Shown here: piece after piece, positions 24,894 through 42,758 of the stretch
Numbering within the stretch: the first letter of the stretch is position 1
How the letters are laid out: the number at the start of each line of letters is the position of its first letter
Assembly: GCA_000442015.1 (NCBI GenBank)
Contig: KE561074.1
Span: forward strand, 1-60,658
Reading direction: 5' to 3'
Source of the DNA: Rozella allomycis CSF55
Lineage: Eukaryota
DNA: 60,658 nt
Translations under genes and position numbers: made by a program
The notes under the pieces: generated by a model
The model's database searches: none
What the model was told of the DNA's origin: nothing
The model's input: only the letters and a program-made list of their open reading frames with translations

Positions 24894-27326
24894 ATGGATT
24901 CCTTTAAGAATGTAGTTTCCAAAGTAATAAAACACAAGATCAAAAATAGGTATCAAATACATTATACCTAAAAGACGAAGACGACGCCGACGAGCTCCAA
25001 AAAATGCAAGCCAAATACACTGGTAAAACGAATGTTAATAAATGTTGATAGAGCTAGCGAAAGCATACAAGAAGCTTCGAATGGAGCGCAGCAAGTTGGA
25101 CGAGATAGTGAAGCAAAACACTCCGCTTCCGGACTACCAATTGGAAGATTTGGAGACGTATTTGAAGGGGATCCATGAGCGCGATAGTTTGACCAAGCAG
25201 GAGATGCAGAAGATTATATTGGAGAATAAGGAGCTGAATACTAGTACGCATGGTAAATTGATGGGTGAGAGTTGAGATGAGATTTGGCTGAGCAAGTGAA
25301 TATTTTGGAGAGGCAGAATGAGGAGCTGTTGCAGAAAATGAATGTAAAGTTGAATGGACAGAATCTGGGTAGAGATTTTGTTGAAAATGGAAATGAGAGT
25401 GGGGATACAGTTGATGAGACATCTAAACTAAAGTTGAAGTTGGAAGAAGAAAGAGTTTCTGTAGAAAAGCTAAGCAAAGTTGTATTGGAGTTGGAGAAGA
25501 GAAATAAAGAGCAAGAAGAAATGTTAAAGGCAAAAGATGATGAATTGAATGGCTTCAAAGAAACGCTTTCAAAAATAGAACAAGAGAAAAATTCAAAAGA
25601 AAAAGAAATGCAAGAATTGATTGATGAAAACGAAAGTAAAATAAAATACCTTGAATCAGAATTGAATGAAACTAGAGAAAAGAATTTGAATTTATTAAAT
25701 TTGGAAAAAGAAAAATGTGAACATTTGGAGAGATTGATAAAAGAGAGAGAATTGGAGATTGAAGAATTGAATAAAAAGAATTTTGGATCTATGGCAGATC
25801 TACAAGCCACTCCAAAGCCCGGGAGAGAAAAAGGCAAAGGGAAATTGAAAAAGATGATTGAAGAGAAAGATCAACAAATTGCTGAATTGATTGAAAAGAT
25901 TTCAAAATTTGAAACAGAAAACAAGAATGATTCAAATGAAGAATTTAAAGAGATGGCAGAGAAATCAAGAAGTTTAGAAAATCAATTGCAGAAAGTTACA
26001 AAAGAATCAATTGAAAGAATAGCACAGTTGAATGATTCATTAAATCAAATAAAGACGTTAGAAGCATTATTAAAGGAAAAGGAAGAAGAGATTGAAACGA
26101 TTAAATTGAACAATTCAAATGAACTTTCAGACATGGAAAAAGTTTATTTGAAAGAAAAGAATAATTTTAATCAAATAATAAATGATTTAGAAAGACAAAT
26201 AAAAGATAAAGAACTTTTAATTGAATCTTCAAATTCTTCTTTAGAATCCTTAAAAGTTAAATACGATGAAGTAATCAAAAGGCTAAGAGAAGCCAAAGTT
26301 GCTATTAAAAATTTAGAAGATGAAAAGAAAAAATTAACTGAAATAAATTTATCAGAAAAAAACAAATATTCTTCTTTTGATGAAGAATTTAATAAATTAA
26401 AAAAGGAATGTTTAGAAAATGAAGAAAAATTAAAGAATAGAATTCTGGAAATTTCTCAATTAGAGAAAACGATTTCAGAGAGAAATTTAGAAACAAATAA
26501 ATTGATTGAAGAAAATATTAAACTTAAAAAAGAAAAAGAAGAAACTAAAATACAAATTGAAAAGAAAACTGACGACTTTAATAGATTTTCAATTCAGTTT
26601 GATAAACAAAGTCAAGAGATTATTAAACTGCAAGATCAACTACAAAACATTCACATTGAAAATAATGAATTAAAAATAAAAATTGAAGATGAAAAACTCT
26701 TCCATCTCAGTAAAAATGCTGAATTAATAAATGAAAATGAATTTAAATTGAAAGAATTAAATGATCGCCTAAAATCTAAAGAAAAAGAATTTGAATCTTT
26801 TGATAAAGAAATTAAAAATCTAAATCAAGAAAATTCAGAATTAAAATCTCAATTAAAAGAATTAAAAGAAAGAAATTCAAGCGCTGAACGAAATCTTCAA
26901 AAGTTAATCAAAGAACAAGTAAAATTTATTCAAACTCTTCAAAGGAATCTGAAATTGAAATCAAAACAAAATATCTAAAAGAAAAAATTGAATCTCTAAA
27001 TAAAACCCTGGTAGATCAAATTGAAAATGAAAAAATTAAAGAAGAAAATTTTCGCTCTTTAAATAAAGTAAAATAAAATCTTTAATTTAAAAAGACTTTG
27101 CAGGATGAAGTTAGAAAACTTGAAAGGCAACTAGAAAAGAATCAAAATTTGCAAGTCAAAGTAGATGAGAATACAAATATTGATTACATGAAATCGGTTT
27201 TTCTTTCTTACATTAAAAACAAAGATCAACGAGTAAACATTTATTTCATTTCTCAAATAGAAACATTTAATACCGGTCCTTTCTACTCTATTAAACGTCT
27301 CTTCAAGTGACTTGACAATAAAATAA
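24894..27326 (+). CDS. GRIP-domain golgin (Imh1-like), long coiled coil, multi-intron
   Basis: N-terminal LAKAYKKL...VKQNTPL, about 600 aa of E/K-rich heptads, and C-terminal NIDYMKSVFLSYI...R|KHLIPVLSTLL (GRIP with conserved Tyr). Confidence 0.8.
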
Positions 27327-33402: not shown

Positions 33403-34528
33403 ATGACTGGAGCGTAAGTATTTGCAAAGATAGTTTGTTTTCCAGTCTCATCACTTTTAAAGTGGATTTGTCAGTGAAATGTTGATACATTCCTCTGATT
33501 AAAAATATGCCGATTATTTATTTTTTACAAATACAATAATCGAATCTCACTCAACGTGAGGATTTGTCCTTGAAGTATTAATTTACTCCTTGGATTAAAA
33601 ACATTGACATTTTTACTCTTTAAGTTTATTTGAGAACAAATCTAACCTTAGTGTTCCTAAACTTACCGTCCCTGAAAACATTCTCAAAAAGAGAAAAATG
33701 GTTGAAAAGGTTCGCGCTGAAAAAGTTGCTGCCCAAATCGCTCAAAGAAAGGCCAACAAGGAGAAGCGCCGTGTCATTTTCAAGAGAGCTGAATCTTATG
33801 TCAATGAATATCGCAAAATGGAACGCGAACAAATTCGTTTGAAGCGTGTTGCTAAATCTGCTGGAAACTTTTATGTTCCAGAAGAACCAAAGTTGGCTTT
33901 TGTTGTTCGTATTAGAGGGTAAGTATCTTTCATATTTTTCTTTACATTCCAAAGATGATGATACAAATTTTGTGTGACGAAGTCATTGATGAAGTCCACA
34001 GTCAACCATCTTTCGGGGCTGAAACTATTTATTTTTACTATGTTTGTATGAACATTTCTAATCTTTAGTATTAACAACATCCCACCAAAGCCAAGAAAGA
34101 TTATGCAATTGTTGCGTCTTCGTCAAATCAACAATGGAGTCTTCGTTCGCCTTACCAAGCCAACCATTGAAATGCTTCGTTTAATCGAGCCATATGTTGC
34201 TTACGGTTATCCAAACCTCAAGTCTGTTCGTGAATTGTTGTACAAGCGTGGATTCGGAAAAATTAATGGTCAAAGAATCGCATTGAGTGACAACGCTGTC
34301 ATTGAACAATCTCTTGGAAAGCTCGGAATCATCTGTATGGAAGATTTGATTCACGAAATCTTCACTGTTGGACCAAACTTCAAACAAGCCAACAACTTTA
34401 TCTGGCCATTCCAACTTAACTCTCCAAACGGTGGATTCCACAAGAGGAAACTCCTTCACTTCATTGAAGGAGGGGACACTGGTAACCGTGAAGATAAGAT
34501 CAATGGATTGATCCGTCAAATGAACTAA
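33403..34528 (+). CDS. RPL7: 60S ribosomal protein uL30 (L7); two unusually long introns (33414-33651, 33919-34068)
   Basis: [17 protein letters not shown]...[43 protein letters not shown]...[21 protein letters not shown] donors; CTAAC/CTAAT branch-like motifs near the acceptors. Confidence 0.97.
33950..34025 (+). ncRNA. Intronic C/D box snoRNA of the snR39/snR39b/snR59 family (LSU rRNA 2'-O-methylation guide)
   Basis: Box C ATGATGA (33955-61), internal TGATGA, box D CTGA (34019-22). The guide ACCATCTTTCGGG is complementary to the conserved LSU sequence CCCGAAAGAUGGU. Confidence 0.9.
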
Positions 34529-34894
34529 ATAAACATTCATTTTTCATTATTTATTATTACGCCACCAATTGTATGTTGAAGCGATTTCTATCTAAAGAGG
34601 CCTTCTCATTTCCCGGTTGCCCTTCTACAAAATTTGTGACAAAGATGGAATTCATCCAGCATCGTCAAACNCCACAAGAGGAAACTCCTTCACTTCATTG
34701 AAGGAGGGGACACTGGTAACCGTGAAGATAAGATCAATGGATTGATCCGTCAAATGAANTCACAAGAGAAAACTCCTTCACTTCATCGAAGGAGGTGACA
34801 CTGGTAACCGTGAAGATAAGATCAATGGATTGATCCGTCAAATGAACTAAATAAACATTCATTTTTCATTATTTATTATTACGCCACCAATTTT

Positions 34895-36219
34895 ATGTTG
34901 AAGCGATTTCTATCGAAAGAGGCCTTCTCCTTTCCCGGTTGTCCTTCTACAAAATTTGTGACAAAGATGGAATTCATCCAGCATCGTCAAACCTTTCCTA
35001 TATATCGTGTTTTAGACAATGATGGGAATGTAATCGATGCGTCCAATAATCCAGCTAATGTACATGAATTATGCAATTATAATAGATTGATAGAGACATT
35101 TGCCTTAAAATTTACAAGGACATGTTATTGTTGAACAGACTTGATCAAGTTTTGTACGATGCCCAAAGGCAGGGTAGAATTTCCTTTTACATGACCAATT
35201 ATGGAGAAGAAGCAATTCATATGGGATCTGCCGCTGCCCTTAATCCATCTGATGTTGTTTTTGGGCAATATCGAGAAGCGGGTAAATCATTGTCGTTTAT
35301 TTCAATAGGGGTGCTTTTGTATAGAGGATTTAAACTGGATGAAATTATGAATCAATGTTTTGCTACCTGTGATGATCCAGGAAAAGGACGGCAAATGCCA
35401 ATTCATTATGGGTCTGCAAGATTAAACTTTCACACGATATCTTCTCCTCTTGCAACTCAAATACCTCAAGCTGCAGGTGCCGCATATGCTCTTAAACTAC
35501 AAAAGACAGGAAACTGTGTGATTTGCTATTTTGGAGAGGGCGCGGCATCGGAAGGCGATTTTCACGCAGCATTAAATATGGCGGCAACTACAGATTCACC
35601 TGTAATATTTTTCTGGTATCTTATCTTTATATATTTGTTGTAGCCGAAATAATGGATATGCCATCTCTACACCCACCAATGATCAGTATCGGGGAGATGG
35701 AATTGCAGCACGGGGCCCTGCCTATGGTATCCACACTATAAGAGTAGATGGAAATGACGTATTTGCAGTTTTTAATGCCACTAAGGAAGCCAGGAGGTTG
35801 ACGGTTGAAAAGAACCAACCTGTATTGATTGAAGCTATGACGTATAGGGTTGGTCATCATAGCACATCCGATGACTCTTCGGCTTATAGATCAAAAGAGG
35901 TAGAATAAAGAAATCTTCATATTAGGAAGTTGAAAAGTGGAGATCAAATTATAATCCAGTGGTTAGATTTCGCAAGTATTTGGAGAAAAGGGATTGGTGG
36001 AACGCTAATGATGAATTAGAAGTACAAGAAAGTATAAGGAAAGAAGTTTTGAAAGAATTTTCTGCAGCAGAAAAGAAAAAGAAACCATCAATCGATGAAG
36101 TATTTACAGACGTCTACGATGTTCTTCCTCCTCACTTATTGGAACAACAACAAAAATTGAAAGAACATCTCGAAAAATATAAAGATGAATACAATCTGGA
36201 CGATCATTTGATTAAATAA
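34895..36219 (+). CDS. BCKDHA: Branched-chain alpha-keto acid dehydrogenase E1 alpha subunit, mitochondrial
   Basis: [65 protein letters not shown] and [13 protein letters not shown]; 4 tiny introns. Confidence 0.96.
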
Positions 36220-41274: not shown

Positions 41275-42758
41275 ATGCAGTTCTGGGGACTTCAAGTTGA
41301 GCCAACCAAATTATATTCACAAACTGTTGATGCATCATACAAGGTGACTATGGTAAGCTAGATTTTGTAGTTTTAGTAGGCCGCTATAGACCCATCAGCT
41401 AAAGATGGAGAAAAGGTCGTTTTGAAGGTCCGTGTGAACAATGATATGGAGTTTGTATTGTGTACTCTTGTTGCTGGACGTGTAAGAATATATGTGTGTT
41501 AATATATAAGCTTAACCAACAAATTATGGACCACGCGTTTACGATGGGAGAGGATGTTGTATTTTTCACTGCTGGAAAGAGCGCTATTCACTTGACTGGA
41601 TACTATCTTGAAGAAGACATTGATGAAATGGAAGAGGAGTTGTCTGAAGAGGATATGACAGATTCTGAGGAAGAAGTGTCTGAAGAGGAAGTTGAAGACT
41701 TGAAGAAGGATGCTGAAGCTAAGATTGTAGAATTGAAGGAAGAGCCAAAAGTAGAAAGCCCAGTGAAGGATTCTGCACACGCCAGTGAGACTGAAGTTGT
41801 TAAGGGAGATGTTGAGATGGAAGCTAAAGATGAAGAATCATCTGATGAAGAAAGCGACGAAGAGGCTGAAATGACAAAAGAAGAAGTTATTTCTTTATTG
41901 AAGCAACAAGGACATTCAGAAAAGGAAATTGAAGAAATGTTGAATGGCGAAGATGACGACAGTGAAGAAGAAGATGAAGACAGCGAAGGTGAAGAAATGA
42001 CCAAAGAGCAATTCGTTGAATTGTTGAAAGCTGAAGGAAAGACTGATGAAGAGATTGAAGAAATCTTAGCTGAAGAGGAAGACGAAGATGAAGAATTTGA
42101 ACAAATTGTTGAATCTTTGAAGAAGGAAGGATACAGTGATGAACAAATCCAAGAAATGCTTGAACAAATGGCTGATGATGATGAAGTTGATTCTGATGAA
42201 GAAATCAAAGAAAATTCAAAGCGTCAAAAGAAACAAGACGAAAAGCCAAACAAGAAGCAAAAGGTTGAAGAAACTCCAAAGAAGGAAAAGAAGAATGAAA
42301 AGAAAGTAAATGAAACCCCAAAGCCTGCTGAAAAGAAAGTCACTGAAACTCCAAAGAAGGCTGCTGAAAAGAAAGTAGCTGAAACTCCAAAGAAAGTCGC
42401 AGAGACCCCAAAGAAAGAGTCAAACAAAAAGACTCTTGCAAATGGACTCGTAATTGAAGATAGAAAGGTTGGAGATGGAAAGAAAGCTTCAAAGAACAAC
42501 AAGGTTGCTGTCCGCTACGTTGGAAAACTTTCAAATGGAAAAGTTTTTGATTCAAACACCAAAGGAAGACCATTTGAATTCGTTCTTGGAAAAGGTCAAG
42601 TCATTAAAGGATGGGATCTCGGTATTGAAGGAATGGCAATCGGCGGTGAAAGAAGATTGGTCATCCCAGCTCCATTAGCTTATGGCAAACAAGGCGCTGG
42701 TGATATCCCAAAGAATGCAACCCTCACTTTCGATGTTAAACTTTTGGCCATTAAATAA
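41275..42758 (+). CDS. Nucleoplasmin-like FKBP peptidyl-prolyl isomerase (Fpr3/Fpr4 type)
   Basis: N-terminal [10 protein letters not shown]...IHLTGYY nucleoplasmin-like domain, acidic and ETPKK repeats, C-terminal FKBP ([27 protein letters not shown]); 2 introns. Confidence 0.95.

What the first reader, a model, noticed from the sequence alone, without database searches (positions are those of the whole stretch)
33444..33603. Tandem, covarying two-hairpin RNA motif in the oversized RPL7 intron 1
Seen: the intron is 238 nt in a genome of ~28-nt introns and holds two units (33444-33507, 33542-33603) with the same layout. Hairpin A is AGTC..CACTT/AAGTG..GATT versus GAATC-TCAC/GTGA-GATTT. Hairpin B has lower stem GTCAG/CTGAT versus GTCC/GGAT, an invariant TGA/CCT internal loop, and upper stem AATGT/ACATT versus AGTA/TACT. 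Each unit ends TAAAAATA or TAAAAACA. Stems differ but still pair while the loop and tail are kept, which is compensatory change. Established: fungal ribosomal-protein introns often carry autoregulatory structures or snoRNAs. Inference: a duplicated uL30-binding splicing-feedback element, or a non-canonical H/ACA-like RNA (AUA/ACA tails 13 nt from the loop top).
Basis: partly seen in the sequence, partly recalled or inferred. Interest (0 to 1): 0.7.

Follow-up and report, generated by a model that had tools for sequence, protein, structure and literature searches.

The report
Atypical twin-pocket intronic guide RNA
A long intron in a ribosomal-protein gene of a tiny-intron fungal relative holds two diverged copies of a small RNA unit whose shared letters match one stretch of the organism's own ribosomal RNA, which suggests an unusually built guide RNA for chemical modification, although no relative or RNA data confirm it.

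Summary
The repeat is real. Intron 1 of RPL7/uL30 (33414-33651, 238 nt) holds two diverged units (0 of 5000 shuffles as alike; 3 double compensatory and 2 broken pairs of 11). No Rfam family or homologue was found. Best reading (about 0.5): an unannotated, atypical H/ACA-like snoRNA of about 165 nt. Three blocks invariant in both units (UCUCA, AUUUGUC, UCCU) pair, 16 of 16, with one contiguous stretch of the organism's own 18S rRNA, leaving UU unpaired 14 nt from AUA or ACA. Column-shuffled pairs did as well in 8 of 1500, but I chose this architecture after other ideas had failed. The target U is 2'-O-methylated in S. pombe. The intron is laid out like six C/D snoRNA introns of this genome. 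Against: a 6-nt bulge, a 3-4 bp upper stem, a weak lower stem, both pockets on one U, and little energy gain. Main rival (about 0.22): a uL30 feedback element as in yeast RPL7B intron 1; mimicry of the rRNA site was not supported statistically.

The parts
33403..33413 (+). RPL7/uL30 exon 1 (ATG to phase-2 donor)
   Evidence: spliced frame open, 245 aa
33414..33651 (+). Intron 1, 238 nt, host of the element; no internal AG|GT, so not a chain of mini-introns
33433..33442 (+). U-rich 5' arm of a terminal zipper stem with 33632-33641, leaving about 24-29 nt outside
   Evidence: pair probabilities 0.79-0.98 for 9 pairs, 0.18 for the closing G-U; 83 of 2000 shuffles as strong with outside length 24-32
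33444..33507 (+). Unit 1
33446..33450 (+). Unit 1 distal 5' guide piece UCUCA, pairs L087 1499-1503
33451..33465 (+). Unit 1 inserted hairpin (top of hairpin A) joining the two 5' guide pieces
   Evidence: -2.9 kcal/mol alone
33466..33472 (+). Unit 1 proximal 5' guide piece AUUUGUC, pairs L087 1492-1498
33473..33490 (+). Unit 1 6-nt bulge (invariant UGAA, unexplained) and 4-bp upper stem
   Evidence: two of the three double changes lie in this stem
33491..33494 (+). Unit 1 3' guide UCCU, pairs L087 1486-1489; starts 14 nt before the box
33505..33507 (+). AUA box of unit 1; ANANNA is present only at 33502-33507, 11 nt from the pocket
33511..33542 (+). 13-bp AU-rich linker hairpin between the units
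33542..33603 (+). Unit 2: guide pieces 33545-33549, 33562-33568 and 33587-33592; inserted hairpin 33550-33561; bulge and 3-bp upper stem 33569-33586
33601..33606 (+). ACA box plus three nucleotides, predicted 3' end; ACA ends 48 nt before the 3' splice site
33632..33651 (+). Extended branch region with extra complementarity to the organism's U2 snRNA; also the 3' zipper arm
   Evidence: U2 in L184; duplex -11.8 kcal/mol
33919..34068 (+). Intron 2, 150 nt, with an snR39/snR59-like C/D snoRNA at about 33948-34024 (known kind)
   Evidence: RF01197 21.1 bits, below the gathering score of 40, guide and D box matched; same RNA in fungal RPL7 loci; PMC8476143 passages

Best explanation
After splicing, a roughly 165-nt RNA (about 33440-33606) is trimmed out of intron 1 and bound by H/ACA proteins at two ANA boxes. 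In each unit the guide is split. UCUCA and AUUUGUC are brought together by a small inserted hairpin and pair with 12 contiguous nucleotides of 18S rRNA 3' of a UU. UCCU(U) pairs 5' of it, and a short upper stem caps the gap. The first U (L087 1490, equivalent to S. pombe 18S 1248) then lies 14 nt from the box and would be pseudouridylated (about 0.35), or the RNA binds this part of the 40S head without modifying it (about 0.15). The two units arose by tandem duplication and kept one target. Shown: complementarity, spacing, intron layout. Inferred: expression, processing, protein binding, modification.
For: The three invariant blocks pair 16 of 16 with a single G-U; 0 of 3000 shuffled 5-kb rDNAs did as well and 42 of 3000 paired all blocks leniently. 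A flexible three-arm search ranks the same U first for unit 2 and first or joint first for unit 1, on 1520 nt of own rRNA (weaker-unit score reached by 2 of 300 shuffles, sum by 5 of 300) and on 5 kb of a contaminant eukaryotic rDNA (0 of 80 for both). Column-shuffled unit pairs: 8 and 6 of 1500. Box distance is 14 in both units, within the published 14-16 (PMC1865073; PMC8522698). Six C/D introns of this genome have the C box at 32-37 and end 44-49 nt after the D box; here the element starts at 31 and ACA ends 48 nt before the splice site. The target U is Um1248 in S. pombe, 98% modified (PMC4605285 supplement).
Against: The three-arm architecture was chosen after rRNA mimicry and two-arm pockets had failed, so the P values are post hoc. 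Each unit alone is weak (unit 1: 42 of 300 and 36 of 80 shuffles; unit 2: 12 of 300 and 3 of 80). With two arms only, a site in the 18S central domain scores slightly higher (24.5 against 23.5). A canonical scan is at chance (79 of 150). The upper stems are 3-4 bp (-0.5 and 0.0 kcal/mol) behind a 6-nt bulge, no conserved lower stem is evident, and unit 1 has no ANANNA in register. The bound model gains only about 1.6 and 0.4 kcal/mol over the free folds, and the best cofold of unit 1 pairs the target U. One double change lies in a stem that the model must open. No homologue in 80 RPL7 loci. I know of no pseudouridine at this position in any species; two paper searches found none.
Confidence: 0.5

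Rival explanations
1. A duplicated uL30-binding element that represses splicing of intron 1 when free uL30 is in excess, as in yeast RPL7B, possibly by imitating the helix 38/ES12 junction of the large rRNA and shifting the intron away from a long-range fold.
For: Same gene and a phase-2 first intron; in yeast the conserved structure there binds Rpl7 and blocks a zipper enhancer (PMC12311795). A 30-nt motif occurs in other fungal RPL7 introns (PMC5640933). A terminal zipper exists here, and a helix 33469-33476/33602-33609 excludes unit 1 hairpin B at a cost of about 4 kcal/mol. A retained intron gives a stop at codon 5. By eye the units share short strands with the yeast structure and with helix 38/ES12. 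Unit 1's best two-part match falls at helix 38 in 16 of 35 rRNA contigs; 0 of 300 shuffles did.
Against: A covariance model of helix 38/ES12 from 34 rRNAs scores the units 5.2 and 3.9 bits, below 12 chance hits in the window. The reverse model finds no helix 38/ES12 hit. Profile ranks are 25 and 672 of 121316. Local alignment to the helix 38/ES12 region was matched by 5-172 of 200 shuffles. In one search the second part mostly lands on the finger tip, not ES12, and unit 2 ranks first in only 2 of 35. The zipper survives in both folds (p 0.99). That uL30 touches helix 38 is recalled; searches did not confirm it.
Confidence: 0.22
2. An H/ACA-like RNA with another target that is missing from the assembly, such as the U in the 18S central-domain loop or a U in helix 38 of the large rRNA.
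For: In other eukaryotes' rRNA the central-domain site gives 8+6 pairs for unit 1 and 4+9 for unit 2 (2 of 40 shuffles), and unit 1 pairs 10 nt with helix 38. The organism's own copies of both regions were not found.
Against: These sites use a 13-nt register, do not use the invariant UCUCA, and fall behind in the three-arm search (27.5 against 32.5).
Confidence: 0.12
3. A decaying tandem duplication whose hairpins only help to compact a long intron for a spliceosome tuned to about 28 nt; the rRNA match is chance.
For: Zipper stems leave 24-29 nt outside in intron 1 and 26 nt in intron 2 (83 and 11 of 2000 shuffles). No homologue, no Rfam family, no RNA evidence. Only two copies underlie all covariation.
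Against: Identity is clustered in blocks that pair with one rRNA stretch, and an intron without cargo has no evident reason to be 238 nt here.
Confidence: 0.16

Closest known systems
Eukaryotic box H/ACA snoRNAs (PMC1865073 and PMC8522698, passages)
   Same: Intronic, two domains each followed by an ANA-type box, ACA three nucleotides from the predicted end, bipartite antisense with two unpaired target nucleotides 14 nt from the box.
   Different: 5' guide split by an inserted hairpin, 6-nt bulge, 3-4 bp upper stem, weak lower stem, no in-register ANANNA, both domains on the same U; no Rfam match.
C/D guides of the same 18S uridine: snoR14 (Arabidopsis Um1232, human Um1288; PMC8351944 supplement) and S. 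pombe Um1248 (PMC4605285 supplement)
   Same: Antisense to the same 18S stretch. Equivalence to S. pombe follows from sequence and the 40-nt offset from the hypermodified U; equivalence to the plant and human numbers rests on recalled numbering.
   Different: Here the antisense is broken at the target U, position -5 from the CUGA of unit 1 is mismatched, and unit 2 has no CUGA.
Hooks structure of yeast RPL7A/B intron 1 (PMC4937481 passages; PMC12311795 text parts 1-4 of 6 and supplement passages)
   Same: Same gene and first intron, multi-hairpin, zipper stem near the splice sites, a few short similar strands by eye.
   Different: Single copy in yeast, different strand order, no sign of the three 18S-complementary blocks by eye; homology not testable by computation here.
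rpl7 and rpl7-l8-s3 motifs of Li and Breaker (PMC5640933, passages)
   Same: Structured motifs in fungal RPL7 introns: one about 30 nt with a central loop, one with two hairpins.
   Different: Their alignments (.sto supplements) could not be read, so identity with either is open.

Membership tests
Box H/ACA snoRNA | ACA box three nucleotides from the 3' end | tested here: inconclusive
   ACA at 33601-33603, placed like D boxes in six snoRNA introns; the real 3' end is unknown
Box H/ACA snoRNA | H box ANANNA 14-16 nt from the first pocket | tested here: not met
   AUAUGC at 14 nt; ANANNA only at 11 nt
Box H/ACA snoRNA | Bipartite antisense around two unpaired target nucleotides, 14-16 nt from the box | tested here: met
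   4+12 and 6+12 pairs with own 18S, distance 14; post hoc P about 0.005; the 5' arm is split
Box H/ACA snoRNA | Upper stem directly above the pocket | tested here: not met
   6-nt bulge, then 3-4 bp; canonical scan at chance
Box H/ACA snoRNA | Lower stem next to the box | tested here: inconclusive
   by eye 3 bp in unit 1 and 5 bp in unit 2, in different registers
Box H/ACA snoRNA | Stable processed RNA bound by Cbf5, Nop10, Nhp2 and Gar1; pseudouridine at the target | not testable with these tools
   no RNA holder listed; the genes for the core proteins were not searched
Known Rfam snoRNA family | Score at or above the gathering threshold | tested here: not met
   only tRNAs in the window; weak C/D hits at E 1.4 or worse over intron 1
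Box C/D snoRNA | C and D boxes with guide paired at position -5 | tested here: not met
   CUGA only in unit 1, with a U-U mismatch at -5 for this target
Yeast RPL7 intron 1 uL30-binding structure | Homologous structure | tested here: inconclusive
   compared by eye only; alignments unavailable
Yeast RPL7 intron 1 uL30-binding structure | Fold mutually exclusive with the zipper enhancer | tested here: not met
   terminal zipper p 0.99 with both units formed; only an inner helix is exclusive
Yeast RPL7 intron 1 uL30-binding structure | uL30 binding and repression of splicing | not testable with these tools
   needs experiment

The most novel reading that the evidence does not exclude
This lineage has replaced the C/D guide that methylates a conserved 18S uridine in fission yeast, plants and humans with a duplicated H/ACA-type guide of a new build, whose antisense arm is assembled from two pieces across a three-way junction, so that the same nucleotide becomes pseudouridine.
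Probability: 0.3. Interest if true: 0.65.

Novelty: new variant of a known kind. Interest (0 to 1): 0.45.

Why it matters
If right, H/ACA pockets can tolerate a split guide and a minimal upper stem. Standard snoRNA finders would miss such RNAs, and some orphan snoRNAs might get targets. It would also be a natural switch of modification type at one conserved rRNA nucleotide. If the rival is right, uL30 feedback through intron 1 reaches to the base of the fungi. Either is directly testable; neither is shown.

Tried and rejected
Helix 38/ES12 mimicry looked strong by eye but failed. Model R2 had hairpin A out of register for unit 2, which weakens. The 34 rRNAs in model R1 were chosen from 57 loci after dropping non-rRNA, truncated, duplicate and very long ones. 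Homology with the 232-nt first intron of L008 looked plausible by eye but a two-unit profile gave 1145 of 3000 shuffles as good. Recursive mini-intron chain: no AG|GT inside. C/D reading: rejected at position -5. A C/D guide for the same U elsewhere: of 94 hits with up to one mismatch, the 3 exact ones are the rDNA, an rDNA fragment and a stretch without C/D layout or Rfam hit; 91 were not inspected, so its absence is not shown. Own helix 38 and 18S central domain: not found. RNA: no RNA holder listed; the one run laid gave two short pieces in exon 3 and its 3' end, none in the intron. The 35 loci were not rRNA. The donor-to-AG length counts showed no peak over controls and are not used. The linker pair list was mis-indexed and is not used. 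In one search the site tying for unit 1 spans the artificial join of two rRNA slices.

Full report
Setting. The window is contig C726 of an 11.86-Mb, 1059-contig assembly; earlier scan notes name the organism as Rozella allomycis (unchecked). The gene is RPL7/uL30: exons 33403-33413, 33652-33918 and 34069-34528 give an open 245-aa frame. Intron 1 is 238 nt and intron 2 is 150 nt, while about seven introns read by eye in three neighbouring genes are 26-30 nt. Intron 2 carries an snR39-like C/D snoRNA, as is known for fungal RPL7 (PMC8476143, passages).

The observation. Both units are there as described. They align with a score reached by 0 of 5000 shuffles and occur nowhere else in the assembly. 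Hairpin B keeps 9 of 11 pairs, 3 by double change, and loses 2. P is about 0.003 for randomly placed changes but 0.26 given the changed positions, so covariation is suggestive only. A 13-bp hairpin lies between the units. The excised piece 33438-33606 folds into the five hairpins (z -2.27). In the whole intron, 33469-33476 pairs with 33602-33609 instead and unit 1's lower stem is lost. No Rfam family reaches its threshold.

Relatives. A metagenome scan with exon 2 kept 80 of 129 RPL7 relatives. By my reading they are mostly ciliates and early-branching ascomycetes. None carries the element (best profile score 19.7 against 64.1, at the window's background level; pattern search). L008 has a 232-nt first intron in the same phase, but it is no more like the units than its shuffles (1145 of 3000). 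All conservation evidence therefore rests on two copies.

First idea, not supported. Yeast RPL7B intron 1 holds a conserved structure that binds Rpl7 and blocks a zipper enhancer (PMC12311795, text parts 1-4 of 6). By eye the units resemble the helix 38/ES12 junction of the large rRNA. A covariance model of that junction scored them 5.2 and 3.9 bits, below 12 chance hits in the window. The reverse model, a profile and local alignments did not rescue it. One test favoured it: unit 1's best match fell at helix 38 in 16 of 35 contigs against 0 of 300 shuffles, but mostly not at ES12, and unit 2 did so in 2 of 35. A terminal zipper exists but persists whether or not the units fold, unlike the yeast switch.

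Intron layout. A genome search for donor plus C box gave 21 hits, of which 6 read as complete snoRNA introns of 141-153 nt; Rfam gave C/D matches in three of the five new ones, one over threshold. Their C boxes start at 32-37 and their D boxes end 44-49 nt before the acceptor. In intron 1 the element starts at 31 and ACA ends 48 nt before the acceptor. This fits a processed intronic RNA, though it could also reflect what any long intron needs here.

The guide signal. A canonical pocket scan is at chance (79 of 150). Allowing the 5' arm anywhere upstream, two 18S sites lead. One of them, L087 U1490, continues: the next five target nucleotides pair with UCUCA, which is invariant in both units, and the sequence between the two guide pieces folds as a small hairpin in both. 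The three invariant blocks pair 16 of 16 with one G-U around an unpaired UU, 14 nt from AUA or ACA. Nulls: 0 of 3000 shuffled rDNAs as good and 42 of 3000 lenient; weaker-unit score reached in 2 of 300 and 0 of 80 target shuffles; 8 of 1500 column-shuffled unit pairs. Each unit alone is weak, and the architecture was chosen post hoc, so I discount these to a few per cent. The target is Um1248 in S. pombe (PMC4605285 supplement rows; same sequence and 40-nt offset from the hypermodified U). Arabidopsis Um1232 and human Um1288 are listed with no yeast counterpart (PMC8351944 supplement row); that they are the same nucleotide rests on recalled numbering.

Weak points. The upper stems are 3-4 bp behind a 6-nt bulge whose invariant UGAA is unexplained. 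The lower stems differ in register, unit 1 has no in-register H box, and both pockets aim at one U. The bound model gains only about 1.6 and 0.4 kcal/mol, and the best cofold of unit 1 pairs through the target U. Only the 3' half of the own 18S and about 700 nt of the own large rRNA were available, so a better target may be missing. There is no expression evidence either way. It works like an H/ACA guide on paper but fails two defining features, so I do not file it as a member.

Literature. Nine searches listed nothing on this element or on split-guide pockets; subscription papers are largely outside the library. Seen as passages only: PMC5640933, PMC8216456, PMC4937481, PMC5425277, PMC5824354, PMC8476143, PMC8351944, PMC4605285, PMC9122591, PMC8522698, PMC1865073, PMC6349667, PMC5499648. 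The unread alignments of PMC5640933 and PMC4937481 could show this to be a known motif.

Verdict. A real, unannotated structured element. Most likely an atypical H/ACA-like guide for a conserved 18S uridine (0.5), then a uL30 feedback element (0.22), a neutral or splicing-scaffold duplication (0.16), or a guide with another target (0.12). New variant of a known kind; interest 0.45.

Noticed in passing
window 33632-33647 and 34050-34061; L174, L183, L239: Long introns carry GAACA three nucleotides before the branch motif, extending the pairing with the organism's U2 snRNA: 4 of 7 found without this motif in the query, plus two in L239 found with it. It recalls the hyperextended branch points of long microsporidian introns (PMC6349667, passages).
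   Followed up: partly
window 33414-33651 and 33919-34068: Both long RPL7 introns have terminal stems that leave 24-29 nt outside, the length of the genome's mini-introns (83 and 11 of 2000 shuffles). Not computed for the other snoRNA introns.
   Followed up: partly
L239 about 1710-1925 and window 33428-33440: A roughly 215-nt intron shares the 5' motif AGATAGTTT and the 12-nt branch region with RPL7 intron 1.
   Followed up: no
L174, L175, L178, L180, L183, L239: Further intronic C/D snoRNAs, with Rfam matches to SNORD35 (over threshold), SNORD27, SNORD34 and snR56; several abut other introns.
   Followed up: partly
L008 47-278: The first RPL7 intron of another fungus-like sequence may hold a canonical H/ACA RNA: pockets of 10+7 and 10+4 pairs to large-subunit rRNA, boxes at 14 nt (8 of 150 shuffles).
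   Followed up: partly
L032-L035, L042, L044-L046, L080, L081, upstream of the match: Ciliate-like RPL7 genes have a roughly 190-230-nt first intron with a shared hairpin flanked by conserved CTTAACA and CTGACTAAC; no clear rRNA target.
   Followed up: partly
L013, L014 first intron: A conserved stretch of about 50 nt with a small hairpin; possibly related to the published rpl7 motif.
   Followed up: no
window 34672-35000: The 3' end of RPL7 and its downstream sequence are repeated next to N letters, probably an assembly artefact.
   Followed up: no
L001, L002, L003, L160, L251: The assembly holds rRNA only as scattered, partly decayed fragments.
   Followed up: partly
window 25681-26940 and 41821-42360: Internal repeats scoring as high as the two units.
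   Followed up: no
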